Shown piece after piece: positions 1 to 42,749 of a DNA stretch of 64,000 bases (position 1 is the first letter of the stretch; every line of letters begins with the position of its first letter). The notes beneath the pieces were generated by a model. The model had not been told where the DNA came from and did not search any database. It was given only the letters and a program-made list of their open reading frames with translations. The stretch is taken from NCBI RefSeq assembly GCF_017348835.2, contig NZ_CP072317.1. One strand, 5' to 3'. A program made the position numbers and the translations under genes. This DNA comes from Escherichia coli. GTDB lineage: Bacteria; Pseudomonadota; Gammaproteobacteria; Enterobacterales; Enterobacteriaceae.

Positions 1-3000
1 GTTTCCGGTTACCTTCCGTGCCTTCAAGCGCGATGGCAAAGGTTTCACTCGCCCCCTGCGCACCGTGGGCGGTGATGGCATAAGCCAGGTCAATATGTTG
101 CTCTGCCCGCTCCTGGCCGGGGCGAATCACCCGGGTCTGCTGTCCGTCTGACAACGTGACACTGTCACCGGAAACCGCTGTCACCGTCCAGACGCTGTTG
201 GCCACATAACCGCGCTCCCGGTCACTCTTCGTGAAGCGCATCCGGTCGCCGGTCCCCACCCGGATTTTGTCCGGGGTGTACAGTGTGACACCTTCAGCCA
301 CCGCCTCCCGGGGCGAAATCAGCCGCGTGTTACCTTCCGCATCCTCCAGGGTTATCAGCCCGTCATCCTTGCTGATACCGGCAATCCGGTGATACACACT
401 ATCCACCAGGGCAAGGGCATCCGGGTTATTCTCCCAGGTGGAGAGACGACGCAGCTCCCCGTCACGTATATTCGCTGTGTTCAGGACAGGCACCATGACC
501 TGCTCTTTCCCCAGCTCACCGGCCTTTTCCCGTGCATCATGAATCATGCTGTTCAGTACGCGCCGGTCCTCATTCAGGTGCGTGACAATCAGCGTCTGCT
601 CCCGTGCTTCCGGTGTCCTGCCGGTATAGTCGCGGACAATGGCTTCATACAGTGTCATGGGGACATCCGGAAAAGTCTCACCTTTCAGCATCGCCTTCTG
701 CTGCGCTTCTGCCAGTTTCGCTTCCTGGCTGTGACTGAACTCCGTCACGGAGTGCTCCGGTGCCCATGCGCCCTCCTGACGGGGAACCTGAGACGGTTTC
801 ACACTCTCAAGCCCGGACAGTGCCCTTTCCACATCCCGGTTAATCAGGCTGTATACCGCCTCCCGCAGTTCCGGCGTCTGACGCACAATCTCCTTCATGA
901 TGACCACATCGGCAGCACTGCGCGTCTGCTGGAGACGGAAAGGCTGACCGGGCGCGATGGCCTGCAGCTGGTCCGTGTCACCACTGGCCACGGCACGACC
1001 GCCACCGGCCGCAATCAGGGCGTATGCCCGTGCCATGTCGGTATTGCCCACCATTGAGCTCTCATCGAGCAGGAACAGCGTGTTGCTGAAATCCGGCGTT
1101 TCTCCGCTGCGCTGCTGCAGCTGCGTGTCATGCAGAAAGGACGCCAGCGTCTGTGCATCCACGCCGGCGCTGCGCATCTCACCGACCGCACGGTGCGTGG
1201 GCCCCAGCCCCACAACTCGGGGACGCTCACTCGCCGGCAGCATGTTCACGGCTGACATCACCGCCCGGAACTGTGTGGTCTTACCCACACCGGCATAACC
1301 CTGTACCACCGTGAAACGGTCGGACGTTTCCAGTATCATACGGGTGGCGGCACGCTGTCCCGACGTTAACGTCTCCATGAGTTCGCCGGGTACTCTCTCC
1401 ATCAGCGGCGTGACCGCCTCCTTACCTTCGAGAATATGGCGAAGAATACTTTTTTCTGCCTCATACGACGCACGGGAAACCAGCAGGCCTGTGCCATAGC
1501 CTTTTGCCACATCCACATACAGTAAGTCACCGCGTTTTATCTGCGCATTGATTTCCCCTCCCAGTTCAGTAAAACCGGTTCCTTCTGCAGCAAACGACTT
1601 CGCCTCTGTCAGCAGGTCCACCATGCTGAAGGCCAGGTTTTTACTTTCCAGCACAGGAAGGGCCAGATGAATGGCCTGCTGTGCCGGCGTGTGCAGCCCG
1701 GTTTTCTGCAGACTGATAGCGGTTTCCAGCGATGTCTCACCGGCCCGCGCCTTTATCTGCTCAGAAACCACCGTAAAGGAGGGATGGCGGGCAAGTTTTT
1801 CCGCAGTACGGGTTTCATCCAGTGAGGAATACAGCCGGACATCACGACCGCTGCGGGCCAGACCGTTCAGGGTGGCGTTGTCCATTGCCATCTGTGTGAC
1901 GGAGGCAAACACCGTCGCACTGTCACTGACGGAATGCCCGGGCGTTTCCACCCAGCCGTTCTCCAGCTTCAGTGCCGTGAACGGTGAATCAGCCACAGGC
2001 AGGGTGGCCGGTTCAGCCCGCCCCGGCACAACAACCGTCATCGCATCTTCACTGACGGATGCCACCTGCAGGCGGTCACCGCCGGAGACGCGGAGTCCGG
2101 GAATTTTCCCTGTCACCCTCAGTCGCTCGCCGTCTGCCACCGGCATTTTTTCCGGCCGGAACAGCGACCAGCTGCTGTCCAGGGAGGAAATACGCACCAC
2201 CTGCGTTTCGCCCTGCGCATCCCGCAGGGTCAGGCTGTGACTCTGCGCCGTCACCCGGTCGATAACATAGCGGTCATGACTGCGTGTCTCCGGGTTCCAC
2301 TGCTCCATCACCATCCCCGGTCGGTACATATCCCGCAGATAACGGCTCCGGCTGTCCAGCCAGACCGGTGACAGGGCGGTCATGGTCACCTCCGGGTGTC
2401 CGAGCACGCCCTGTGTTTTCAGCTCACTGCGAATGGCCTGTGTCAGTATGGCCTGTTCCCGTACCCCGCTGACCTGTGCCACGCTCTCTTCTCCGGCTTT
2501 CACGCTGGCCGCAAAATCTCCGGCCAGCCGGTCATAGCGGACATTCCGGTCCGGTTCACTGATGATGGTTGCCGGTCGCTGTTCTCCGCCCTGCCAGCGA
2601 TACGTGTTCACCCCGGCATCCTTCATGGCCATCAGCGCACTGCCTGTACCGGTTCGCTGCCCGCTGTCGGTTATCAGGACCTGTACGTTATGACGTGCGG
2701 CACCATCCAGCAGGGTTAACGTCTCTTTCAGGGAGAGTTTTTCGCCCTGGTCGACGATAACAGTACTGCCCGGCGTGAAGACCATGCCCTCCTGCAGCTG
2801 ACGACGTCCGGTTATCAGCTCACCGGACAGCCGTTCATCCTGCTTCAGGTTCATCTGCGAGCGACGGTCAGCAGCGATAATCTGCACCTCCCGCCCCTGC
2901 TCCCGGGCCATCATGACCAGTTCAGCCACCCGCTCACGCTGCCCGGCTGCACCGCCCTGCCCGGACACAATGGCCAGCGACGGACGGTCCTGTGCCAGAA

Positions 3001-4273
3001 CACTGACCGCATCGCTGTAACCAGCCGTCCGGGGGACACTTTTCTCCGGATGTACGGTCACCCGGTTCTGTTTCATGATGTCACGACTGAGTGCCCGGAC
3101 GGACAGCTCATCGAGCACATGAATTCCTGATGTGAACAGCCCCTTCTCACGGTCGAGGGGGATAAGCTGCTCACGGCTGATGGCCTCATCGATACCGGCG
3201 CGTGCCCGTTCAATCACACCATTTTCCGGCGGCAGTATGCCGACCGTCCTGGCCAGCACGTCCGTATACGTGAACTGCACTTTTCGTTCACTTAATCCGG
3301 CAATCGCCTGTGTCACCGCCTGCTGCACATCCGGCCCGTCCTGTGAAGCAGGCCCGGGCGCCTGCGTGCGGATCTCCGCACGCTGATCCGCCGCGTCACG
3401 ATATGCCCGGATGTCGAACCCGGTTTCCTTCAGCGTCTGCATCCATTCAGCCATTCTGACTTCAGGATCGACGTGCTGTTTGGATTTTCGCGTATCCAGT
3501 GCCGCCACATCCCGGGATTTCAGCGAGGCGTCTTCACCGACGGCCTCCCTGATAGCCTGTGAACGACTGGAAAAGGCCTCCACCGGTACGCCCGGCATCT
3601 CCCACATACCGTGCTTACCGACCACTTCGGTTTCATAACCCAGCGCCTCAACGCGCTGACGTAACTCACTCTGATATATTTTCCCGAACGCAATCCGGTT
3701 CGCTAGCACGTTCTCGGAAAATCCGGTTTTCCCCACTTTGTCACTGCTCAGTGTCTTCCACTCGCCGTTATGCTGCGTGACATTAGCCACCACTACATGC
3801 GTGTGTAACTGTGGGTCCTGATCGCGACTGGTGTCATGGTTAAACAGTGCCATCACCAGATTACCGGTCAGCACCGTTTCTGACTGTCCGTCCGTCATCA
3901 CCCGTGTGGAAGCCAGCGCCTCCACCTGACGGACAGCAAAATCCACGGCCTGGTTATGTGCATCAATAAGACGTTTATCCCCCCCGAGCATGGCCATCAT
4001 GGAGACACTTTTGGGGGCGGAGAAGGTCAGGTCGTAGCCGGGACGATGCTTATTACTGCCATCCTGCATGCGGCTTAAATCCGCCCCGTCCGGCAGCCTG
4101 CCCTCCAGAAGACGGGTAAAAACATCCTTATCGACGCTGCCCTGCAGCCCAAGCTGTTCAGCCCCCTGACCAGCCCAGCGTTCTCCCATGCTGCCCAGCA
4201 CATAGTAATTATCCTTGTCGGTGTAATAGTTTCCGGCACTGCCTGCCGATTTAACAACGCTGAAACTCAACAT
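1..4273 (-). CDS. traI: TraI relaxase/helicase, 5' portion only (3' end lies beyond window start)
   Basis: Reverse-complement translation from ATG at 4273-4271 gives [24 protein letters not shown], the F-like TraI N-terminus; ATGA overlap with traD stop; absent from ORF track because no stop inside window; frame not checked base-by-base to position 1. Confidence 0.85.
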   Translation of the reverse strand, partial: MLSFSVVKSAGSAGNYYTDKDNYYVLGSMGERWAGQGAEQLGLQGSVDKDVFTRLLEGRLPDGADLSRMQDGSNKHRPGYDLTFSAPKSVSMMAMLGGDKRLIDAHNQAVDFAVRQVEALASTRVMTDGQSETVLTGNLVMALFNHDTSRDQDPQLHTHVVVANVTQHNGEWKTLSSDKVGKTGFSENVLANRIAFGKIYQSELRQRVEALGYETEVVGKHGMWEMPGVPVEAFSSRSQAIREAVGEDASLKSRDVAALDTRKSKQHVDPEVRMAEWMQTLKETGFDIRAYRDAADQRAEIRTQAPGPASQDGPDVQQAVTQAIAGLSERKVQFTYTDVLARTVGILPPENGVIERARAGIDEAISREQLIPLDREKGLFTSGIHVLDELSVRALSRDIMKQNRVTVHPEKSVPRTAGYSDAVSVLAQDRPSLAIVSGQGGAAGQRERVAELVMMAREQGREVQIIAADRRSQMNLKQDERLSGELITGRRQLQEGMVFTPGSTVIVDQGEKLSLKETLTLLDGAARHNVQVLITDSGQRTGTGSALMAMKDAGVNTYRWQGGEQRPATIISEPDRNVRYDRLAGDFAASVKAGEESVAQVSGVREQAILTQAIRSELKTQGVLGHPEVTMTALSPVWLDSRSRYLRDMYRPGMVMEQWNPETRSHDRYVIDRVTAQSHSLTLRDAQGETQVVRISSLDSSWSLFRPEKMPVADGERLRVTGKIPGLRVSGGDRLQVASVSEDAMTVVVPGRAEPATLPVADSPFTALKLENGWVETPGHSVSDSATVFASVTQMAMDNATLNGLARSGRDVRLYSSLDETRTAEKLARHPSFTVVSEQIKARAGETSLETAISLQKTGLHTPAQQAIHLALPVLESKNLAFSMVDLLTEAKSFAAEGTGFTELGGEINAQIKRGDLLYVDVAKGYGTGLLVSRASYEAEKSILRHILEGKEAVTPLMERVPGELMETLTSGQRAATRMILETSDRFTVVQGYAGVGKTTQFRAVMSAVNMLPASERPRVVGLGPTHRAVGEMRSAGVDAQTLASFLHDTQLQQRSGETPDFSNTLFLLDESSMVGNTDMARAYALIAAGGGRAVASGDTDQLQAIAPGQPFRLQQTRSAADVVIMKEIVRQTPELREAVYSLINRDVERALSGLESVKPSQVPRQEGAWAPEHSVTEFSHSQEAKLAEAQQKAMLKGETFPDVPMTLYEAIVRDYTGRTPEAREQTLIVTHLNEDRRVLNSMIHDAREKAGELGKEQVMVPVLNTANIRDGELRRLSTWENNPDALALVDSVYHRIAGISKDDGLITLEDAEGNTRLISPREAVAEGVTLYTPDKIRVGTGDRMRFTKSDRERGYVANSVWTVTAVSGDSVTLSDGQQTRVIRPGQERAEQHIDLAYAITAHGAQGASETFAIALEGTEGNRK

Positions 4274-8796: not shown

Positions 8797-11619
8797 TTAT
8801 TGCTTATACTTATCCTGATATTCCTTTGCCCTTTTCATCAGTTCCTGTGGACTGTCAGCCCCGGGCATTCTTTCCTGAGCCGACTTTTCTTCATTATATT
8901 TATTATTCTGAGATAATGCCTCTGTTTTATGGTGATTCTGCAGTTCAGAATACTGTCCTCTTACAATATTTTCCTCGCCACGTACGCTGTTCTGAGTATC
9001 ACCTATATTCCCTTTATATTCTGTGACCATATTATCAACCTGATGTTTTACATCATTACGGATATTACTGTCCTGCGTTCTTTGATCAATAATGGCCTGA
9101 TGCCCCTGATGGTCAGCAATAATATCCTGACTGCCACCACCCGAAGGTACGCTCTCCATTCCTTTACCAATATCACCACGGGATTCCCGCCAGGCATTAT
9201 CAACACCAGGCTGTACCTGTTCCTGCACAAAAGACCAGGCCATCGCCCGACGACGTTCTGCAATCTCCGGTGAACTGGTGTTTGTCAGAATAGCTTCTGC
9301 ATCCTGTGGCGCGTGTTTCATTACATACTGTGCAAACTGTTGCGACAGGTCTTCACTCATCTGCCCACTCATGCTTTCAGTACGGGATGCCATTTCAGCA
9401 TATTCATGGCTGCGGGTCATATTCGTCGTGTACTGGTCGTAACTCTGCTTCGCTGAATTCAGGGCTGCAGACAACTGATCCACACGGGAATCAGCATTAT
9501 TGTCCGTATGGCTGCCGGACTCACTGACCTTGCGACTGGTAAAATAATCGCTGGCCTCTTTAAAGTCTTGTGTAGCTCTGGCATCGATATCATGACGAGC
9601 ATTATGGCTCGACTGAGTATTACTACTTGCCGTATGCGCATCATTATCTTCCCAATCAATACCAGCCCGACCACCACCTCTAACGCCTAATCCTCCACCA
9701 ACACCAAGAATTTTAGGTTTAACCCCCCATTCAGCATGAGCATCTCCATACATCCCGGCAGAAGCTCTCGTACTTCTGGATGCCAGTTCCTGAGTCGCCT
9801 GCTCATTACTGATATTATGCGCCTTCGCATAGCTTTCCACTGCACTGCGCATACGGCTGGCCATCATGGAGTCCTGTGCGCTCATCGTGCTGTCAGCACC
9901 ACCTGTGACAGAATCACTGCTCCCCCGGTTAGAACCAAACTGGCTGAGCGAGTTCCAGGCACTGGCAATACTGCTGCTGAACCCATGCAGGGCGCTTTCT
10001 GCTCTGTTCGACGCCTCCCGGGCCATTTCCTGTTGTGCCGCTGCAATCTGACGCGTTGCATTGATACCGACCGGTAACCGGGACATCGCCCCGCTCGCAT
10101 CCATCACCATATTACCGTCACGGGTCTGTGTGGCAGTTGCGCCACTGCCGGTCTGGTACATCATCTGACCAAACGACGTGGTGCTGTTGGTGCTCCAGCT
10201 GAAGCCGTTCACGTTTTCCGTCTGCATGTTGCCGTAGGAGTAATTACCGTCAACCACACTACCTGCCGCACTGGCAGTCGGGCTGATAGCAGAGGAAGCG
10301 AAATGGCTGTACACGCTGGAAAAACCTGCGCCAAGGCCTTTTACCATCATCCATGACAACGGGGGTATCATGACAGATATATATCCGGCAGTGGACGCCA
10401 GGTCGGAGTATTTCAGCTGTATCTGAGAGAGTTCAGAGAGCACGACCGGTGCACCATTCTGCTTTGCATAGAATGTCATGGCACTGTTCAGAATGGCATA
10501 CAGCAACGGCCAGGTCTGGAACCACATCAGAGCAAACACATAGCCTCTCAGAACAGACAGCGTCAGTCTGTTGAAGACAGCCGCCAGTACCAGGAGCGGG
10601 AAGATACCAATGGTAATGCCCACCAGAATGGTCTGCACCATCGGCAGGTTTCGCATCAGCACATGACCAATGGAGACATGTGCCAGACGCTGTTTCTCCA
10701 TCGACGAAGTCGTGGCCAGACTGACCAGGCTGGCGGTATCACCGTTACGGGCTGCATTACTGGTGATACCCTCTTTCAGGGCATTCATGGTGACGTTCTG
10801 GCGCATAATATGACTGGCAGACTGGCTGGAGCCGTAGAAATAACTGTAACTGTCACTCACCAGTTGCCTGAATAACAGGTCCGGGTCCGGTCTGCCGCCA
10901 AATATCTGCTGCACATAATAATGCCAGGTCTTGCCTCCCGTCTTTGTATCGAGATTCAGCCTGTCTTTCAGCGTGACCGACGCATCTTTACAGGTTATGA
11001 AATTATTATTGCTGTCATAAACGCCCCGTAGCGGGCTGGGCCGGGAAAAAATCAGCGTGTAGGGGTCAGCGGAGGCCATCAGGTCTTCCAGCGTGTATTT
11101 GTGGTTCAGGTAAATATCCCCCAGCACGCAGTTCTGGACGTAGTCCTGAAACAGATTGATGATTTCCGGATTCCGGGACAGAAAATCGGTGCTTTTCACA
11201 ATCAGGTTCGCCCCGAACAGCATGCCTGTCTTGCTGTAGGTGGCGCTGTCAGGCTGGGTGAATATCATCTCGTAACTGGCCACCATTGCATGCCCGATAC
11301 GGGTCGTCAGTGAAAGTGGCATCGCCAGTCCGACAGGCACATTATCCACCCGGTGAACCTGGACCAGGTCACTGTTATCAATAATCTGCACCGATGTACG
11401 GACATTAACCAGCAGGCTGATAAGCACAAACACGGCCACCCAGCCCAGCAAATCCATCACGTTGTGCCGCTGTACCCACATCACGGCCACCGCGAGAACA
11501 GACAATGTGAGCGCAATTTTTTCGATGGAATCCCACGTCCGGGTCCCCATAAAGGCGGCAATGGCGTTCAGGTTATTGCGTAACCACTCACCACCGGCAA
11601 TCACATAGACTTCATTCAC
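8797..11619 (-). CDS. traG: TraG mating pair stabilisation protein
   Basis: 940-aa ORF, N-terminal polytopic membrane domain, F-type TraG size and synteny. Confidence 0.93.
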   Translation of the reverse strand: MNEVYVIAGGEWLRNNLNAIAAFMGTRTWDSIEKIALTLSVLAVAVMWVQRHNVMDLLGWVAVFVLISLLVNVRTSVQIIDNSDLVQVHRVDNVPVGLAMPLSLTTRIGHAMVASYEMIFTQPDSATYSKTGMLFGANLIVKSTDFLSRNPEIINLFQDYVQNCVLGDIYLNHKYTLEDLMASADPYTLIFSRPSPLRGVYDSNNNFITCKDASVTLKDRLNLDTKTGGKTWHYYVQQIFGGRPDPDLLFRQLVSDSYSYFYGSSQSASHIMRQNVTMNALKEGITSNAARNGDTASLVSLATTSSMEKQRLAHVSIGHVLMRNLPMVQTILVGITIGIFPLLVLAAVFNRLTLSVLRGYVFALMWFQTWPLLYAILNSAMTFYAKQNGAPVVLSELSQIQLKYSDLASTAGYISVMIPPLSWMMVKGLGAGFSSVYSHFASSAISPTASAAGSVVDGNYSYGNMQTENVNGFSWSTNSTTSFGQMMYQTGSGATATQTRDGNMVMDASGAMSRLPVGINATRQIAAAQQEMAREASNRAESALHGFSSSIASAWNSLSQFGSNRGSSDSVTGGADSTMSAQDSMMASRMRSAVESYAKAHNISNEQATQELASRSTRASAGMYGDAHAEWGVKPKILGVGGGLGVRGGGRAGIDWEDNDAHTASSNTQSSHNARHDIDARATQDFKEASDYFTSRKVSESGSHTDNNADSRVDQLSAALNSAKQSYDQYTTNMTRSHEYAEMASRTESMSGQMSEDLSQQFAQYVMKHAPQDAEAILTNTSSPEIAERRRAMAWSFVQEQVQPGVDNAWRESRGDIGKGMESVPSGGGSQDIIADHQGHQAIIDQRTQDSNIRNDVKHQVDNMVTEYKGNIGDTQNSVRGEENIVRGQYSELQNHHKTEALSQNNKYNEEKSAQERMPGADSPQELMKRAKEYQDKYKQ

Positions 11620-33940: not shown

Positions 33941-34620
33941 CTGTATCTGATGTTTTCAGCCCCCATCATCTGTTGAGTTTCGGGAGCCGCGGTTTTGACG
34001 TTTTGCGGGGACCTGCCTTTTGTTCCCTCCGGTATTCACCATCACCTGTTTGAGAACCTTCGCCGCAAGGGGCATCACTGCCACGGCCTGACGCACCTGT
34101 CCTGGGCAGAACGCAAAATTTTTTACCGGGTTTTGGGTAAAAAATTTTGTGGGCTGTTCATTTACCCTGGACAGTCAGTGCGGCAGGTTGTGGCTGTCTA
34201 TGCCCCCGGCGACAGGGGCTTAAACAGGTGAATGGCACCGGACAGAACAACGGGCAGGGACCCGCCGCAACGACGTGAAGCGCGGTTTGCGAAACGGCGT
34301 TGCTCCTTACATCCCGGCGTCTTTTGCCGGGATGCCGGGAGCGCAGGCCACGGCGCGACAAGGGTGGCGCGACCGTTCCGGTCGCTGCAAACCCGGGTTT
34401 TTGCGTCAGGGATGGAAGCCCGCCAGGGCGGAGACAGCTTCGCTGGCTCCGTTCACGACAGCCCGCCCCGCCAGGGGGACGCCCGGAAAAGGCATAAGCA
34501 GGAGAACAACAAAACAGACAATAATCAGGGCAGCAGTAATCAGAGTCAGAGCAGTAATCAGAGTCAGAGCAGGAGGAAAAAGAGAATAATCAAAGGGAAG
34601 GTGATGTGATTTCTGGTAAG
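33941..34620 (+). promoter_or_regulatory. Frpo/ssi-like repeat unit, copy 1 (candidate single-stranded-DNA promoter)
   Basis: Near-identical to 39431-40110 and related to 42750-43400; contains a ~230-nt imperfect hairpin on the + (transferred) strand. Confidence 0.6.
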
Positions 34621-36503: not shown

Positions 36504-38527
36504 TCAGGCGGCTTCTGCCTGGTCGTCACGGTACTCCGTGGTTTCCGTCTCTGCCTGTGGACGTGGTGTACACATCCAGCCAGGCACCCAGCGGTTGTCT
36601 TTCATGTGGAACTCTGCATGTTCAGCGGCATCGCCTTTCTTCATTTTCTCCGCGTCCCGCGCAGCACCGGACAGTCCGGCATCATTCAGGGCATCGATAA
36701 TCTGCGGCTTTTGCAGGTGTCCGAAGAAGTTTGCTTTCGTCGGCTGCCACCAGTCGCGCATGTGGAATCCGATAGCGCTCTCCAGCGAGTCCAGCGGACT
36801 GCGTGACGTGTGACCATGCTCGCGGGTCTGAACGCCGTGGATGCTGCACGCGGTGCAGAAACTGAGCAGGGATAACAGTACCTCCTGGCTGAGTGACAGG
36901 AATGTCGTCATATCCCGTGACCATCCCTCCGGTAACAGGGCTGCAAGACGGGCTTTTTCTGCCATCAGCGCCAGGAATGCGGCACCGTCCTTCCCCGATG
37001 GCGCATCGCTGGTCAGCGAATAATGTTTACATTCCAGGCTGATTTGTGCTGGTTTACTGTACGCTCCGCTGCCAAACACATTCAGGCAGAGCGCTGATGA
37101 ATCCCCTAATGATTTTGGTAAAAATCATTAGGGGATTCATCAGGGCAGAGCGTCCATGCCAGCAGTGCCAGAGATTTGTCCGGTTGCTGCATCAGTGCTG
37201 CCTGGACTGCCAGCGTGCGTTCGGAAGACATTTTCGTCAGCAGTGGCAGACTGATTTCCTCCACGGGCGCTTTCTCCTGCACCTGTTCCGTGCGGTCAGC
37301 GTCGTCAGCCGCATCATCCTCGCTGCGCAACTGCACACCACGCTGGACACACACGTTGCCATAACGCCAGGACACCACCACACCGCTTCCGGCACGCATC
37401 TCCGGCGTCCACGCCCTGACCTTCGCCATGCAGCGCATCAGCTTCATTTCTGCTTCCAGCAGGTCAGATTCCTCACACTGGTTTTCCAGCGCGTCGTAAC
37501 GCGTCATCAGTTCGTTCAGACGTTCTTCTTCCGCCTCCGTCAGCACCGCTTCCGGCTCCGGCAGACAGCGGTATGTTCCGGCATCCTCACGGCACTCACC
37601 GACAGGCTCCATGCGTCCGGCGCACCATCCCCAGCCTTCGGCTTCCCGAAGGTGTTCAGCAACAGCCTGGAGTTTTTCCAGCAGGGCGGCATCGAGCGCC
37701 ACGCAGTCCACATAGCCACCCTCGTCGTCGCTGAACAGGTCAGTGCGCAGTTCATCTGGCGAGAAGGCATCAGCCCCCACGAAGCGGAATTTACTGTTCC
37801 CTGCCACCGCCACTTCACTTTCGGTCACCAGACGACGAATGGTCTGTACTTCCGGTTTACCGCCCCATCCCGACTGACAGGCGGCTTCAAACACCTGCAC
37901 CTGACGCGCGGTGTCGTTCTCCAGCGCCAGCGCCTGACAGTGCTCGGTGGTGATGAGGTCTTCTGCCAGCGCATCGAGGATGACAGGCGCAAGGTCAGCC
38001 AGTTTCAGCATTCGCTGAACGTGGCGGGGTGAATAGCCCAGCAAATCACCGATTTGTGCAGGTGTTTTGCCTTCCTGCGCCATTGCACAGAATCCGGCAA
38101 TCTGTTCGGCTGGGTGCATATCCCGACGATGACCGTTCTCGGTCATCGATGCGGCCGTCGCCAGTTCCTGCGAAATAATTTTCACGCGGACAGGCCAGTC
38201 AGCCGGAATGATGCCACGCTCTGCCAGCATGTTGAGTGCTGCCAGTCGGCGACCACCTGCGGCGACACCGTGGCGGTCACCTGGCAGGGCATGAACAACC
38301 AGATTCTGCAGCAGGCCGACCCCCTTAATGGAATCAGCCAGTTCGCTGACGGACTCCGCAGAATACGGCACCGTGCGCACATTCAGTGGTGACTTAATCA
38401 GCGAGGCCAGCGGCACGCTCACTTCCTCCGTCTGCGCCAGCAGGGCAGACAGGACAGTTTCCTGCGTTTTTGCAGGTTTACGGCTTGCTTTACGGGTAGA
38501 TTTTGGTTCAGACTTTGTTACTGACAT
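36504..38527 (-). pseudogene. ParB-like leading-region gene disrupted by a 59-bp insertion
   Basis: ORFs 37106..38527 and 36504..37079 are in different frames; removing the 50-bp element plus one 9-bp duplicate restores one frame; upstream ORF ends in DESPNDFYQNH encoded by the insert. Confidence 0.7.
37094..37143. mobile_element. 50-bp palindromic mini-element made of IS10 terminal inverted-repeat sequence, flanked by 9-bp direct repeats
   Basis: CTGATGAATCCCCTAATGATTTTGGTAAAAATCATTAGGGGATTCATCAG; flanking GGCAGAGCG at 37085-37093 and 37144-37152. Confidence 0.65.
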
Positions 38528-39406: not shown

Positions 39407-39430
39407 GATGTGTCTCCTTCTGTTGATGTT

Positions 39431-40110
39431 TTCAGCCCCCATCATCTGTTGAGTTTCGGGAGCCGCGGTTTTGACGTTTTGCGGGGACCTGCCTTTTGTT
39501 CCCTCCGGTATTCACCATCACCTGTTTGAGAACCTTCGCCGCAAGGGGCATCACTGCCACGGCCTGACGCACCTGTCCTGGGCAGAACGCAAAATTTTTT
39601 ACCGGGTTTTGGGTAAAAAATTTTGTGGGCTGTTCATTTACCCTGGACAGTCAGTGCGGCAGGTTGTGGCTGTCTATGCCCCCGGCGACAGGGGCTTAAA
39701 CAGGTGAATGGCACCGGACAGAACAACGGGCAGGGACCCGCCGCAACGACGTGAAGCGCGGTTTGCGAAACGGCGTTGCTCCTTACATCCCGGCGTCTTT
39801 TGCCGGGATGCCGGGAGCGCAGGCCACGGCGCGACAAGGGTGGCGCGACCGTTCCGGTCGCTGCAAACCCGGGTTTTTGCGTCAGGGATGGAAGCCCGCC
39901 AGGGCGGAGACAGCTTCGCTGGCTCCGTTCACGACAGCCCGCCCCGCCAGGGGGACGCCCGGAAAAGGCATAAGCAGGAGAACAACAAAACAGACAATAA
40001 TCAGGGCAGTAGAAAAAAGAAGAACAGTAGCAGTAGCAGTAGCAGTAGCAGTAGCAGTAGCAGTAGCAGTAGCAGTAGCAGGAACAACAACATCATCAGT
40101 AACAGACAAA
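39431..40110 (+). promoter_or_regulatory. Frpo/ssi-like repeat unit, copy 2, immediately 5' of ssb
   Basis: Near-identical to copy 1; ssb start about 25 bp away. Confidence 0.65.
40026..40081. repeat. hexanucleotide microsatellite (CAGTAG, about 9 copies)
   Basis: Perfect tandem repeat at the distal end of repeat copy 2; copy 1 carries an 18-bp-type imperfect repeat at the same place. Confidence 0.9.
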
Positions 40111-40260
40111 TGACAGGTCTGAAAAGACAGAAGCCCCCATCAGAACGTCCGCGTAATGAAAGGGGCGGCGCGTGAGCGCGGCCCCTTTCAGCGCCACCGG
40201 CGCGCGGTTTTTTCCCGGCGCGGACAGACGGGCATTTATCCTCCCGCCAGCCCTGTGTCA

Positions 40261-40824
40261 TCAGGCACGCAAACGAATAATCATCGTCGGGACATCGGTA
40301 TAAGCAAACGTGCCGCGCGGCAGCTCCTCGCGGACGTCAGAAAACGGTAACAGCTTCTCCTGCTGGCGTGGCCCGTTGAGACAGACGGCAACCAGAACGC
40401 CCCCCGGACGCAACAGGGAAAAAGCCCGCAGGATATGCCGGATATCCTGCCCGTGACTGAACGGCGGATTCATAATGATCCGGCTGTAATACTGCACCGA
40501 CTGCCATTCCATGAAGTCGCCACACTGTACCCTGACACCGTTAAAATTTTCCCGCAGATACCGGACCAGCCCGCTGTTAATCTCCACCGCATCACACATG
40601 GCCTCCGGCGCGGTATCCCGAATCGCCCGCAGTATGGCCCCGGTGCCGGCAGAGGGTTCCAGAATGTGATCACGGTTGCTGATTTCCGCCAGCGTCACCA
40701 GGCGATCACAGATCGGGGCAGGACTCACAAAAAGCTGAGATTCAGCCCGGATTTCAGCAACCGGCGCGGCGTTATCCAGCCTTGCGCGCATCAGCCGGAT
40801 ACGTTCTCTTAACTGACTGTGCAT
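40261..40824 (-). CDS. orphan SAM-dependent DNA methyltransferase (NPPF motif)
   Basis: 187-aa ORF with SAM-binding EPSAGTG-like motif and NPPF; no adjacent restriction gene. Confidence 0.65.
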   Translation of the reverse strand: MHSQLRERIRLMRARLDNAAPVAEIRAESQLFVSPAPICDRLVTLAEISNRDHILEPSAGTGAILRAIRDTAPEAMCDAVEINSGLVRYLRENFNGVRVQCGDFMEWQSVQYYSRIIMNPPFSHGQDIRHILRAFSLLRPGGVLVAVCLNGPRQQEKLLPFSDVREELPRGTFAYTDVPTMIIRLRA

Positions 40825-40870
40825 ATCATTATCTCCGTCATCCCCCGGGGATTTCCCGGGGGGATATACC

Positions 40871-42232
40871 TTATTTCTGTGGGATTTCCGTGATTTTCAT
40901 GTCGGTGATATACACATTCACCAGACGGAAATTATTGTCCATTGTGCGGCGGTAGCGGTATGCCCCGTGGTCTTCTGCTTCTTCCACACTGCGCACGGCC
41001 TTACAGTCCCGGGGCAGGGCGGCCCACTGCGCCTTTGTCATTTCCCGGAAACCTTCCCCCGGATAGTTGACTACCGGCGGACGCTTCGCGGCCTGACTGG
41101 CGACGGCAGCCTCTTCTGCCGATGGTGCTTTGTAGTCCGTGATGCGATCGGGCGTCACTTTCATCGTGCCGCTGTACCCGAGAAAACTGTAATTTGGCGT
41201 TGTGACTGAACTCACCGCCCCGTTGCTTTTGTTCACGCGGATGATAGTCAGCCACTCGCCCCGGCTGAAAACCTGTCCGCCCGGCTCAAAATCCTGTGTC
41301 CGGGTAACCACGCCGCCGCTTTCGTCCAGCATGGCACGCTCATAGATCAGGCGGTTCTGATAGTGGTTAACCCAGCGTTGCTGATGCTGAATCTGCCGTT
41401 CATGACAGCGGATCGCAATTTCGCGGGCCTGCTCCGTGGTGATGATGTCATCATCCAGGGCCGACCATAACGACCGGCTCCCTTCATACTGGCTTTTTTC
41501 TGCCGGGCGCGGATACGTATCCAGCGGGAAACAGGCGCTGATATGGTCATGACTGCTGATGAGTTTTGCCATATTCAGATCCAGCGATTCAGCCCGCCAC
41601 ATCGTCAGATATTTCTGCGACTGTGCGATGGTCTTTTCAGCCTTGCGCAAATCAGCTTCGATTTTTTTGATACGACGCCAGCGAACGTCCGGGCGTTCTT
41701 TATACTTCGCGTGAAGCAGTGCCGACCGCGCCCGTTCTTCCCAGTATTCCGCACGTTCAAAGAGCATCACGGCACGTTTCATGCCGTTTTCAATACGCTG
41801 CGCATCACGACGGGCGCGGCGTTCGCTGTGATGCCCCACAAGAATGGGCTGACCGGGCGGGATCATCGCGGCCAGTCTTTCCACTTCATCAAGTGCCTGT
41901 GCGGATTCACTGGCCCGCTTTCCGCTGTATCCGGTAAACCGCTCCGCCCGTGCTTCCTGACGTTCAGCGAGCGTGCTGTCTTCATCCTCAATCTCTCCGG
42001 CAAGTGAGAGGAGCACGTCTTCCCGGCCCGGTGTCCAGGCTGGCGCGACAAACAGCGCCTGTCTGGGTGCCCAGCGGAAACCGGCATCATGCACTTTTTT
42101 ATACGTCTCCGGGTCAAGACGTGACGCGGCATACAGGCGCAGTTTGTTGTCATCCGGTGAGTAGGTCGCGCGGTACATCTGCACAGGGCTGGCGGCTTCC
42201 GGGGCGGTCATGGTGATTGCAGCTAATGTCAT
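40871..42232 (-). CDS. hypothetical leading-region protein (453 aa)
   Basis: Long ORF with good coding continuity between the 76-aa ORF and the methyltransferase. Confidence 0.55.
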   Translation of the reverse strand: MTLAAITMTAPEAASPVQMYRATYSPDDNKLRLYAASRLDPETYKKVHDAGFRWAPRQALFVAPAWTPGREDVLLSLAGEIEDEDSTLAERQEARAERFTGYSGKRASESAQALDEVERLAAMIPPGQPILVGHHSERRARRDAQRIENGMKRAVMLFERAEYWEERARSALLHAKYKERPDVRWRRIKKIEADLRKAEKTIAQSQKYLTMWRAESLDLNMAKLISSHDHISACFPLDTYPRPAEKSQYEGSRSLWSALDDDIITTEQAREIAIRCHERQIQHQQRWVNHYQNRLIYERAMLDESGGVVTRTQDFEPGGQVFSRGEWLTIIRVNKSNGAVSSVTTPNYSFLGYSGTMKVTPDRITDYKAPSAEEAAVASQAAKRPPVVNYPGEGFREMTKAQWAALPRDCKAVRSVEEAEDHGAYRYRRTMDNNFRLVNVYITDMKITEIPQK

Positions 42233-42283
42233 AAAATGTTCTCCTTCCGTCTGTTGCCGCCCCTCGCGGGGCGGCTCACCTCA

Positions 42284-42514
42284 TCAGTTAAAAGCGCGTT
42301 TCAGTTCGAGTGTGCGGAGCACCTGCCCGAAAGCCGTATTTTTCATGGCGGGGATGTGTACACCACGTCCCCGGTGAAAACTCCGGGCAATGTGTCGCCC
42401 GAAGGCTTTCAGCACGGGGTCAATTTCCGGCGCGGGGATGTCTTCGCGTCTGAAACGGGGATGACGGCGGGGCTTTACAGCCGCTGCGGAAGGTGAAACA
42501 ATACTTACCGTCAT
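42284..42514 (-). CDS. hypothetical basic small protein, first ORF 3' of Frpo-like copy 3
   Basis: 76-aa ORF. Confidence 0.4.
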   Translation of the reverse strand: MTVSIVSPSAAAVKPRRHPRFRREDIPAPEIDPVLKAFGRHIARSFHRGRGVHIPAMKNTAFGQVLRTLELKRAFN

Positions 42515-42749
42515 AAATGAAACTCCTTATGACTGTTGAATGGAACCGCAGAAACTGCTCGAACAGTTTTTGCGGTGTGGATTAAGCAGGTCCTCCCCGG
42601 CCTGCTTTTTTCATATCTGCGTCTGACGTTCTCCGGTGTTTTCCTCCTTCTGTTCCTGCGTTCTCATTACCTGCCAGCCGGATGACTGACAGAACAAATA
42701 AATGCGTATTGCCGGAGCCTGAAATAAATCCTGATTTTTAAAGAACATC

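What the first reader, a model, noticed from the sequence alone, without database searches (positions are those of the whole stretch)
40871..42514. Unassigned 76-aa and 453-aa ORFs are the first genes downstream of Frpo-like copy 3
Genes directly downstream of leading-region ssDNA promoters are the first expressed in the recipient and often have anti-defence or establishment roles. This pair precedes an orphan methyltransferase and has no function assignable from sequence.
Basis: inference. Interest (0 to 1): 0.55.

Follow-up and report, generated by a model that had tools for sequence, protein, structure and literature searches.

The report
Early-expressed split methyltransferase operon on plasmid
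The two ORFs are real and very common IncF plasmid leading-region genes (ydaB and the DUF3560 gene ydbA), and because ydbA and the methyltransferase gene behind it form one fused protein in most phages and other mobile elements, the three genes are most likely an early-expressed DNA-methylating anti-restriction module, still untested.

Summary
ORFs of 76 aa (42284-42514, -) and 453 aa (40871-42232, -) are the first intact genes downstream of a third Frpo-type ssDNA-promoter repeat. A 187-aa orphan methyltransferase gene (40261-40824, -) follows them.

All three genes have Shine-Dalgarno sites and are under purifying selection (dN/dS 0.12, 0.07 and 0.31). They occur in at least 5000 PLSDB plasmids as ydaB, ydbA (Pfam DUF3560) and ydcA.

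"No function assignable" is only partly right. In 99 of 147 distant homologue clusters and 68 of 74 viral loci, the YdbA region is fused N-terminally to a YdcA-like methyltransferase domain. YdcA is a catalytic domain only (TaqI/HsdM-like, NPPF motif) with no target-recognition domain.

My best reading is that YdbA and YdcA are a split two-part adenine methyltransferase. It would be made from the incoming strand to protect the plasmid from restriction.

A conserved antisense RNA (Rfam AS-pc01, 42509-42610, +) covers the ydaB ribosome-binding site. It probably silences the operon once the plasmid is double-stranded.

The YdbA fold (pLDDT 93) matches nothing informative in the PDB. YdaB remains unexplained. 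Plasmids F and pESBL lack the module, so no published early-expression data cover it.

The parts
42746..43001 (+). Core of Frpo-like copy 3, a class-1 ssDNA promoter hairpin on the transferred (+) strand. The repeat family extends to 43029, with a further 82-nt repeat at 43102-43183.
   Evidence: Three-copy repeat. 92.5% identity over 255 nt to the functional F Frpo2 fragment. The ssDNA fold gives -134 kcal/mol with z = -8.3, and the same hairpin as copy 2. I could not place the -35 and -10 hexamers with confidence.
42515..42745 (-). 232-nt leader between the promoter repeat and ydaB. It is a shortened version of the Klebsiella leader, which carries an extra 75-aa ORF.
   Evidence: Leader alignment with L085. 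In copies 1 and 2 the repeat runs almost straight into the next gene's ribosome-binding site.
42509..42610 (+). AS-pc01 cis-antisense RNA (Rfam RF02875). It is complementary to the ydaB Shine-Dalgarno site, start codon and 5' leader.
   Evidence: 89.7 bits against a gathering score of 79. Conserved at the same place in diverged Klebsiella (94.8 bits) and IncFIA/FIC (105 bits) versions.
42474..42502 (+). Sigma-70-type promoter-like site for AS-pc01 (TTTACA-17-AACAAT with an upstream TG), lying inside the ydaB coding sequence.
   Evidence: It is the only promoter-like site in 39700-43300 and ends 7 nt before the Rfam match starts. A consensus match only.
42584..42607 (+). Intrinsic terminator of AS-pc01.
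   Evidence: 9-bp stem followed by TTTTTT. It coincides with the 3' hairpin of the Rfam model.
42284..42514 (-). ydaB: a 76-aa, very basic protein (pI 11.9) of unknown function, found only on Enterobacterales plasmids.
   Evidence: 234 homologue clusters, all enterobacterial, one named YdaB. 26 invariant columns among 24 sequences of 75-89% identity. dN/dS 0.12. pI.
40871..42232 (-). ydbA: a 453-aa protein with a DUF3560 domain. It corresponds to the N-terminal roughly 450 residues of the fused DUF3560-methyltransferase proteins.
   Evidence: Pfam PF12083, residues 89-206, E = 1e-36. 3891 representative clusters at E <= 0.001. AF2 model pLDDT 93.4, pTM 0.81. dN/dS 0.07.
40261..40824 (-). ydcA: a 187-aa orphan SAM-dependent methyltransferase. 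It is a catalytic domain only, with motif I LEPSAGTG and motif IV NPPF.
   Evidence: Pfam MTS and others. PADLOC and PHROG DNA-methyltransferase models. M.TaqI catalytic domain is the best PDB sequence relative. HsdM, PacII M and M.TaqI are the best structural matches. It is 35-47% identical to the C-terminal domain of fused YdbA homologues.
39424..39878 (+). Frpo-like copy 2. It is the promoter of the next operon (ssb and following genes) and the downstream boundary of the module.
   Evidence: Repeat families D1 and D2. 97.9% identity to F Frpo2.

Best explanation
ydaB, ydbA and ydcA form one leading-region operon. YdbA (DUF3560) and YdcA together make a split, two-polypeptide version of a widespread single-chain DUF3560-methyltransferase enzyme.

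Proposed sequence of events:
1. Inferred: on entry of the transferred (+) strand, Frpo-like copy 3 folds into its hairpin and recruits host RNA polymerase. The operon is transcribed before the complementary strand is made.
2. Inferred: YdcA supplies the gamma-class (TaqI/EcoKI-like, NPPF) adenine-N6 catalytic domain but has no target-recognition domain. YdbA supplies the nucleic-acid-binding or targeting part through its basic, arginine-rich helical DUF3560 core and its C-terminal beta-rich domain.
3. Inferred: the pair methylates the incoming plasmid DNA so that recipient restriction enzymes do not cut it.
4. Inferred: once the plasmid is double-stranded, Frpo is inactive and the AS-pc01 promoter becomes usable. 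The antisense RNA pairs with the ydaB ribosome-binding site and keeps the operon off.

What is shown here: gene reality, the promoter homology, the fusion/split relationship, the absence of a recognition domain in YdcA, and the presence and conservation of the antisense RNA.

What is not shown: physical YdbA-YdcA interaction, the substrate, early expression of this operon, and the protective effect. The role of YdaB is not explained.
For: Fusion/split relationship.
- Of the 147 newly retrieved representatives among the 150 best 50%-identity clusters homologous to YdbA, 99 carry a C-terminal domain 35-47% identical to the neighbouring YdcA.
- In IMG/VR, 68 of 74 loci are fused, 3 have an adjacent separate methyltransferase gene, and 3 have no methyltransferase homologue in the locus.
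- A concatenated YdbA+YdcA sequence aligns colinearly to 73 fused proteins at 38-49% identity. Both halves keep their invariant residues.
- An independent split with the same gene order exists in a phage-like contig (L094, methyltransferase HMM E = 1e-57).
- Fused genes have no other conserved neighbour, so the two-module unit is self-sufficient.

YdcA lacks a recognition domain.
- It matches only residues 23-164 of the 421-residue M.TaqI.
- Its best structural matches are HsdM, PacII M and M.TaqI.
- It has the (S/T)P...NPPF signature that Iyer et al. 2017 (PMC5512222) describe for EcoKI/TaqI-like adenine methylases of mobile elements.

YdbA looks like a nucleic-acid binder. The DUF3560 helices have pI 10.2, and 17 of the 30 positions with at least 85% conserved K/R lie in residues 88-215.

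Context.
- Frpo homology and fold are confirmed.
- Fused homologues sit beside ArdC, other methylases, a ParB_N protein and Lar.
- The same window carries a 92%-identical homologue of the experimentally ssDNA-specific leading-region methylase M.EcoGIX (PMC7736820).
- AS-pc01 with its promoter and terminator is conserved across about 71% nucleotide divergence.
Against: - AF2 on the concatenated sequence gives pTM 0.63, against 0.81 for YdbA alone. No fixed YdbA-YdcA interface is predicted.
- YdbA-like proteins occur with no methyltransferase homologue in the sequence held. These are L096/L097 and 3 of 74 viral loci. DUF3560-only PHROG families also exist. The module may therefore have an autonomous function.
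- The YdbA fold has no informative PDB match, so DNA binding is not supported by structural homology.
- By profile score, rRNA adenine dimethylases tie with M.TaqI. An RNA substrate is not excluded.
- YdcA evolves faster than YdbA (58% against 76% amino-acid identity to the Klebsiella version).
- No expression data exist for this operon in recipients, because F and pESBL lack it.
Confidence: 0.5

Rival explanations
1. YdbA is an autonomous anti-defence or establishment effector. It could be a binder or inhibitor of a host nuclease or sensor, or a protector of the incoming strand. On this view it is fused or adjacent to a methyltransferase only because mobile elements string independent counter-defence modules together, as in polyvalent proteins.
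For: - YdbA-like genes exist with no methyltransferase homologue in the sequence held (L096/L097; 3 of 74 viral loci).
- PHROGs has DUF3560-only families.
- One long homologue carries LPD29, a polyvalent-protein domain.
- The YdcA-type methyltransferase domain also occurs inside giant polyvalent phage proteins without DUF3560 (PHROG profiles of 1259-3925 positions).
- AF2 predicts no fixed interface.
Against: - The pairing has a fixed order and nothing else attached in about 90% of loci across 40-50% sequence identity. That is unlike the shuffled architectures typical of polyvalent proteins.
- YdcA has no recognition domain of its own.
- Independent splits keep the two genes adjacent and in the same order.
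Confidence: 0.25
2. YdbA is an enzyme in its own right, a hydrolase or nuclease as many UniProt entries name it. The conserved GQPILVGHHSERR loop plus invariant H290, R294 and E298 would form the active site, acting on host or plasmid nucleic acid.
For: - Near-invariant G127, Q128, P129, I130, L131, G133, H134, H135 and S136, and invariant H290, R294 and E298.
- 'Hydrolase' or 'HD superfamily hydrolase' names are attached to more than 1200 members of family 28 in Samuel et al. Supplementary Table 1.
Against: - Pfam finds no HD or other hydrolase domain in 88 members.
- There is no PDB sequence or fold match to any hydrolase.
- The names are automatic annotations.
- The conserved loop sits between two long helices and has lower model confidence.
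Confidence: 0.1
3. The YdbA/YdcA enzyme methylates host RNA or protein rather than plasmid DNA, for example rRNA or tRNA adenine, or a glutamine as HemK does. It would reprogramme the recipient during establishment.
For: - rRNA adenine dimethylases (Dim1/KsgA, Erm) and HemK score as well as M.TaqI against the family profile.
- Pfam hits include RrnaAD and MTS.
- A recent preprint reports host reprogramming by another leading-region protein, YfjB (PMC13370423, abstract seen).
Against: - The strongest matches are to DNA-methyltransferase models of phage and defence libraries (mad2 E = 2e-19; PHROG DNA methyltransferases E = 1e-25 to 1e-29).
- The top structural matches are HsdM, PacII and M.TaqI.
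- Neighbours in other elements are anti-restriction genes and DNA methylases.
Confidence: 0.1
4. The ORFs are conserved hitch-hikers with no role of their own in establishment. The cassette would persist because it is bracketed by recombining Frpo repeats on very successful plasmids.
For: - F and pESBL conjugate efficiently without the module.
- F Frpo2 is a mosaic of window copies 2 and 3, which shows recombination among the repeats.
- Loss of whole leading-region segments had no effect on laboratory conjugation in another plasmid pair (PMC3817090).
Against: - Purifying selection is strong on all three genes.
- The family spans thousands of clusters in phages and other elements.
- The module has a dedicated, conserved antisense regulator.
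Confidence: 0.05

Closest known systems
M.EcoGIX / M.BceJIII, leading-region ssDNA-specific orphan adenine methyltransferases (Fomenkov et al. 2020, PMC7736820)
   Same: It is an orphan adenine methyltransferase in the leading region, oriented for transcription from the transferred strand, and proposed to protect incoming DNA. A 92%-identical M.EcoGIX homologue lies in the same window at 46549-47232.
   Different: M.EcoGIX is a single 227-aa DPPY-motif enzyme with no detectable similarity to YdcA. In pESBL it is driven by a different promoter, class 3 (PMC12672017). YdcA is an NPPF, TaqI/HsdM-like domain tied to a 453-aa DUF3560 partner. Its substrate and strand preference are untested.
Type I restriction-modification HsdM plus HsdS (also PacII M1M2S)
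   Same: YdcA's best structural matches are HsdM and PacII M. As with HsdM, the catalytic polypeptide lacks a recognition domain. A separate helix-rich protein would supply DNA recognition.
   Different: YdbA shows no detectable sequence or fold similarity to HsdS. There is no HsdR or other nuclease nearby. In most relatives the two parts are one chain.
Phage P1 DarB and the methyltransferase modules of polyvalent proteins (Iyer et al. 2017, PMC5512222)
   Same: It belongs to the same EcoKI/TaqI-like adenine methyltransferase clade, with the (S/T)P helix and NPP(F/Y) motif. It is deployed by phages and conjugative elements at entry. YdcA hits PHROG profiles of giant polyvalent proteins, and one YdbA homologue carries LPD29.
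   Different: In DarB-type proteins the methyltransferase is flanked by LPD36 and an SF2 helicase. Here the only partner is the DUF3560 region. DUF3560 does not appear in the main text of that paper (0 occurrences).
F plasmid Frpo1/Frpo2 (ColIb-P9 ssi1-3) class-1 ssDNA-promoter operons
   Same: Homologous hairpin repeat, same orientation, and co-directional genes pointing toward oriT.
   Different: This is a third copy driving a cassette absent from F and pESBL. A 232-nt leader carrying a cis-antisense RNA lies between the promoter and the first gene. In copies 1 and 2 the repeat abuts the next gene's ribosome-binding site.
Cis-antisense translational control on F-like plasmids (FinP/traJ, Sok/hok, CopA/repA)
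   Same: AS-pc01 is a roughly 100-nt antisense RNA with stem-loops and a terminator. It overlaps the Shine-Dalgarno site and start codon of its target. FinP, sok and CopA are all present in the same window.
   Different: Its target is an establishment operon behind an ssDNA promoter. Its regulatory effect has not been measured here. From memory, unchecked, it was only catalogued in the RNA-seq study of plasmid pHK01.

Membership tests
Pfam DUF3560 (PF12083) | Significant match to the family HMM | tested here: met
   E = 1.1e-36, residues 89-206 against model positions 3-121 of 124. All 88 aligned homologues match.
Fused DUF3560-methyltransferase proteins (about 650-700 aa) | Colinear homology of YdbA to the N-terminal roughly 450 residues | tested here: met
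   Matches cover query residues about 20-451 at 41-57% identity. Alignments A2 and A3.
Fused DUF3560-methyltransferase proteins (about 650-700 aa) | The adjacent gene product is homologous to the C-terminal methyltransferase domain of the fusions | tested here: met
   YdcA hits 99 of 147 representatives at 35-47% identity, always at their C-terminal ends. 68 of 74 viral loci are fused.
Fused DUF3560-methyltransferase proteins (about 650-700 aa) | The two parts act as one enzyme (physical complex in the split form) | tested here: inconclusive
   The AF2 model of the concatenated sequence has pLDDT 89 but pTM only 0.63. No multimer prediction or experiment was possible.
Gamma-class (EcoKI/TaqI-like) N6-adenine DNA methyltransferases | SAM-binding motif I and catalytic motif IV NPP(Y/F), in that order | tested here: met
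   LEPSAGTG followed by IIMNPPF. G513, G515, N572, P573 and P574 are invariant in A3. Aligned to M.TaqI motifs.
Gamma-class (EcoKI/TaqI-like) N6-adenine DNA methyltransferases | N-terminal helix capped by a TP motif (Iyer et al. 2017) | tested here: met
   The family consensus is APQLFPTPxxLAxRMV. The window protein has QLFVSPAPICDRLV, with SP in place of TP.
Gamma-class (EcoKI/TaqI-like) N6-adenine DNA methyltransferases | A target-recognition domain in the same polypeptide | tested here: not met
   The 187-aa protein aligns only to residues 23-164 of the 421-residue M.TaqI. No further domain is found.
Gamma-class (EcoKI/TaqI-like) N6-adenine DNA methyltransferases | m6A formation on DNA | not testable with these tools
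   rRNA adenine dimethylases score equally well by profile. A methylome experiment is needed.
Frpo/ssi class-1 ssDNA promoters | Sequence homology to an experimentally active Frpo | tested here: met
   92.5% identity over 255 of 288 nt of the F Frpo2 fragment in the acrIIA4 construct of Samuel et al..
Frpo/ssi class-1 ssDNA promoters | Stable long hairpin on the transferred strand, upstream of co-directional genes | tested here: met
   z = -8.3. Same fold as copy 2. The genes are on the - strand, pointing toward oriT.
Frpo/ssi class-1 ssDNA promoters | Reconstituted -35 and -10 boxes and a mapped transcription start in transconjugants | tested here: inconclusive
   I could not place canonical hexamers unambiguously in the stem (and manual inspection). 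No RNA data exist for this copy.
Rfam RF02875 AS-pc01 | Covariance-model score above the gathering threshold | tested here: met
   89.7 bits against 79, full length 1-99. 94.8 and 105 bits in two relatives.
HU/IHF-like DNA-binding proteins (for YdaB) | Significant similarity to an HU-fold family | tested here: not met
   There is only a 38-residue match to the eukaryotic HU-CCDC81 domain at E = 7e-4. The PDB profile search finds nothing.
HD-superfamily hydrolases (database name of many YdbA homologues) | HD domain match | tested here: not met
   No HD or other hydrolase Pfam family appears in the window protein or in 88 homologues. No PDB hit.
Defence-system proteins (PADLOC) and NCBIfam named families | Match of YdaB or YdbA to any model in PADLOC (defence-system proteins) or NCBIfam (curated named families). 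No dedicated anti-defence library was available. | tested here: not met
   0 families for both proteins. PHROGs gives only unknown-function families for YdbA and none for YdaB.

The most novel reading that the evidence does not exclude
DUF3560 would be a new kind of nucleic-acid-engaging module that turns a methyltransferase catalytic domain lacking a recognition domain into an entry-phase enzyme. It might load the enzyme on single-stranded or just-replicated DNA for broad-specificity adenine methylation. Alternatively it could have its own catalytic activity through the invariant HH-S-E-R loop, giving a two-activity counter-defence enzyme shared by phages, ICEs and plasmids. Enterobacterial plasmids would then have split it into two genes, added the small basic protein YdaB, and placed the whole under ssDNA-promoter-ON / antisense-OFF control.
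Probability: 0.2. Interest if true: 0.7.

Novelty: new variant of a known kind. Interest (0 to 1): 0.45.

Why it matters
YdbA (DUF3560) is one of the largest uncharacterised gene families enriched in plasmid leading regions. It is family 28, with 1913 members, in Samuel et al. 2024. It sits on thousands of clinical IncF resistance and virulence plasmids of E. coli, Klebsiella, Salmonella and Shigella.

If YdbA is the missing targeting half of the YdcA methylase, these plasmids carry a second entry-phase methylation system beside M.EcoGIX. That system is distinct in mechanism and shared with many phages.

This would help explain broad transfer across restriction barriers. It also gives a concrete, cheap experiment: a methylome with and without YdbA.

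The ssDNA-promoter plus antisense-RNA arrangement is also a tidy candidate mechanism for the "on at entry, off afterwards" behaviour of leading genes.

Tried and rejected
- YdaB as an HU-like protein. This was rejected.
- YdaB paralogues behind the other Frpo copies. There are none in the window. So I could not confirm that the 'YdaB/YdfB/YgdA' family 1 of Samuel et al. is a true paralogue set.
- YdaB-like partners next to fused homologues in Caballeronia and Pseudomonas. Several 76-aa genes occur there but are unrelated. No conserved neighbour of any kind exists in 72 viral loci.
- A confident YdbA-YdcA interface. The concatenated AF2 model has pTM 0.63, which is inconclusive.
- Published early-expression data. 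F and pESBL lack the module, and the supplement of Wen et al. 2025 is not held.
- Placing the -35 and -10 hexamers in the copy-3 hairpin. Several candidates (TGGACA, TTGACG) lacked a convincing -10 at 16-18 nt, so this is left open.
- Isolated-phage genomes. There was one weak hit only. The phage signal comes from metagenomic viral contigs.
- Literature search for DUF3560, ydbA and ydaB. No functional study was found.
Full report
**Setting**

The window is an F-like (R100/pHK01-type IncF) conjugative plasmid. Rfam finds traJ 5'UTR/FinP at 30.9 kb, sok at 35.0 kb, CopA at 62.8 kb, and AS-traI and AS-traG in the tra region.

A 100%-identical PLSDB plasmid was used to read the gene order. From left to right it is:
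- traM, then the SLT (gene X) gene;
- DUF932, hok and psiB;
- a stretch with no listed gene, which holds the frameshifted ParB-like gene;
- DUF905 and ssb;
- the methyltransferase, DUF3560 and the 76-aa ORF;
- a 63-aa ORF, DUF1380 and an antirestriction gene (KlcA-type);
- further on, a DNA methylase, then parM.

From established knowledge of F-like plasmids, oriT lies between traM and gene X, and the leading region enters first. The transferred strand is therefore the + strand of the window. All leading genes lie on the - strand, pointing toward oriT. That is the orientation needed for transcription from the incoming single strand.

**Check of the observation**

They are genes, not chance ORFs.
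- Each has an AAGGAG-type Shine-Dalgarno site 8 nt upstream of its ATG (sequence).
These are mostly Escherichia, Klebsiella, Salmonella and Shigella plasmids, and mostly conjugative.
- Klebsiella pGR-1504 carries the same three genes at about 71% nucleotide identity. Comparison with it gives dN/dS of 0.12 (76 aa), 0.07 (453 aa) and 0.31 (methyltransferase).

The 'Frpo-like copy 3' is also real.
- A repeat of about 300 nt plus 82 nt occurs three times, at 33948, 39424 and 42730. Copies 1 and 2 are identical and copy 3 is 85-89% identical to them.
- Copy 3 is 92.5% identical over 255 nt to the F Frpo2 fragment that Samuel et al. used to drive acrIIA4 from ssDNA.
- Its + strand folds into a long hairpin, with z = -8.3.
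- I could not place the -35 and -10 boxes unambiguously.

**What the proteins are**

The 453-aa protein is YdbA. It carries Pfam DUF3560 at residues 89-206. NCBIfam and PADLOC have no match, and PHROGs gives only unknown-function families.

The key result comes from an exhaustive search of 50%-identity cluster representatives. It found 3891 relatives, and most of the best distant ones (41-57% identity) are about 650-700 aa long. In 99 of 147 of these, the extra C-terminal domain is 35-47% identical to the neighbouring 187-aa methyltransferase YdcA.

Other searches agree.
- In IMG/VR viral contigs, 68 of 74 loci are fused, 3 have a separate adjacent methyltransferase gene, and 3 have none in the locus.
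- A profile search found about 2000 more clusters, all with the fused architecture among the 120 best listed. The named members are from Caballeronia, Pandoraea, Rhodoferax, Burkholderiaceae and Pseudomonas.
- YdbA+YdcA concatenated aligns colinearly with 73 fusions.
- Stand-alone YdbA-like genes outside Enterobacterales gave mixed results. One has an intact adjacent methyltransferase gene (L094). One has adjacent methyltransferase fragments (L092/L093). One has none in the sequence held (L096/L097).

The association is therefore very strong but not absolute.

**The methyltransferase**

YdcA has motif I (LEPSAGTG) and motif IV (NPPF). It also has the N-terminal (S/T)P helix described for EcoKI/TaqI-like adenine methylases of mobile elements (PMC5512222).

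Its best PDB sequence relative is the catalytic domain of M.TaqI, residues 23-164 of 421. Its best structural matches are HsdM, PacII M and M.TaqI. It has no target-recognition domain.

rRNA adenine dimethylases score similarly by profile. DNA is the favoured substrate but is not proven.

**Structure of YdbA**

AF2 with 88 sequences gives a confident model (pLDDT 93.4, pTM 0.81). It has four parts:
- a small alpha/beta domain (residues 20-83);
- three long helices (88-212), which are the DUF3560 domain, with the near-invariant loop GQPILVGHHSERR;
- a second alpha/beta-plus-helix unit (219-304);
- a beta-rich C-terminal region (320-442).

The DUF3560 helices are basic (pI 10.2) and hold most of the conserved Arg/Lys positions. 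This fits nucleic-acid binding but does not prove it.

A model of the concatenated YdbA+YdcA has pTM 0.63, so the relative placement of the two parts is not fixed.

**YdaB**

The 76-aa protein is very basic (pI 11.9) and is conserved only on Enterobacterales plasmids. It has no paralogue in the window and no counterpart next to fused homologues.

The weak Pfam hit to a eukaryotic HU-like domain (E = 7e-4) is not backed by profile comparison with bacterial HU or by the PDB. Its role is open.

**Regulation**

Between copy 3 and ydaB lies a 232-nt leader. Rfam places AS-pc01 (RF02875, 'antisense to pHK01_035') at 42509-42610 on the + strand.

The first stem-loop of AS-pc01 is complementary to the ydaB Shine-Dalgarno site and start codon. 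The only sigma-70-like site in the 3.6-kb region ends 7 nt before it. A terminator closes it. AS-pc01 is conserved at the same position in the Klebsiella version and in an IncFIA/FIC version.

Because its template is the strand that is made only in the recipient, it can be transcribed only from double-stranded DNA. I infer that it shuts the operon off after establishment.

**Cassette nature**

Plasmids F and pESBL go straight from the 63-aa ORF region through one Frpo to ssb. They lack ydaB, ydbA and ydcA. F Frpo2 is a mosaic of window copies 2 and 3. This fits recombination among the repeats, as proposed for other plasmids (PMC3817090).

As a consequence, the published transconjugant RNA-seq and microscopy do not cover this operon (PMC12672017, PMC9849209).

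**Context elsewhere and literature**

- In Caballeronia the fused gene lies in a long co-directional array with ArdC, another methylase and a ParB_N protein. In P. aeruginosa it lies beside a C5 methylase and a zeta toxin. In a phage-like contig it lies near a Lar restriction-alleviation gene.
- Samuel et al. list DUF3560/YdbA as leading-region family 28 (1913 members, 'Uncharacterized'). Their Foldseek comparison to UniProt50 structures gave 240 members a 'Methyltransferase domain' label. They did not discuss it.
- K. pneumoniae chromosomal CRISPR arrays hold spacers against the DUF3560 gene, the methylase gene and the Frpo repeat (PMC6965323).
- No functional study of DUF3560, ydbA or ydaB was found.

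**Verdict**

It misses that ydbA belongs with the methyltransferase, and that a known antisense RNA sits on the first gene.

The best-supported mechanism is a split DUF3560 + gamma-class adenine methyltransferase, expressed from the incoming strand and silenced afterwards (confidence about 0.5). The main rival is that YdbA is an autonomous effector.

The family is already catalogued but is functionally unknown. I rate it a new variant of a known kind (orphan entry-phase methylase) and of moderate interest.

Noticed in passing
window 42509-42610 (+), promoter 42474-42502, terminator 42584-42607: The Rfam AS-pc01 antisense RNA overlaps the ydaB ribosome-binding site and start codon. It has its own promoter-like site and terminator. 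It is conserved in relatives at about 71% nucleotide identity.
   Followed up: yes
window 36507-38527 (-): The ParB-like leading gene is broken. It is the homologue of the 652-aa F protein that I take to be YfjB (my inference). Residues 1-461 align in frame -1 and residues 460-652 in frame -3. This is a frameshift near 37.1 kb. The gene is absent from the PLSDB gene table of the identical plasmid, which omits pseudogenes.
   Followed up: partly
window 33948-34402 and 39424-39878: Frpo copies 1 and 2 are 100% identical over 300 + 82 nt and lie 5476 nt apart. They bracket hok/sok, psiB, the ParB-like gene and ssb. This suggests recent gene conversion. F Frpo2 is a block mosaic of window copies 2 and 3.
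   Followed up: partly
window 40025-40081 and 34522-34572: A perfect (CAGTAG) x 9.5 tandem repeat lies about 150 nt beyond the distal (oriT-far) end of Frpo copy 2. An 18-nt repeat of about 3 copies lies at the equivalent place beside copy 1. F has a purine-rich GAAGAG-type run there. Function is unknown; these may be length-variable.
   Followed up: no
window 46549-47232 (-): A second orphan methylase in the same leading region is 92% identical (209 of 227 aa) to M.EcoGIX of pESBL, the characterised ssDNA-specific enzyme. The plasmid therefore carries two unrelated entry-phase methylases.
   Followed up: partly
window 42611-42751 (-); L085 6402-6629: Klebsiella relatives have an extra intact 75-aa ORF between the Frpo repeat and AS-pc01. 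The window keeps only a shortened, degenerate remnant.
   Followed up: partly
L093 4512-4853 (+) and 5047-5430 (-): In a metagenomic contig the methyltransferase gene downstream of a stand-alone YdbA-like gene is in two pieces, with the second piece inverted. This could be an assembly artefact or an invertible segment.
   Followed up: no
L085 (Klebsiella Frpo copies); literature PMC6965323: Published K. pneumoniae chromosomal CRISPR spacers match the DUF3560 gene and the methylase gene. One spacer, which that paper lists as matching an intergenic region with 2-4 hits per plasmid, reads GAGCAGGCACCCGCCGCAACGACGAAGAGCGC. It matches the Klebsiella Frpo repeat in alignment A5.
   Followed up: partly
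window 1348-1424, 10815-10900, 62847-62937 (+): Further plasmid antisense RNAs reach Rfam gathering scores: AS-traI, AS-traG and CopA.
   Followed up: no
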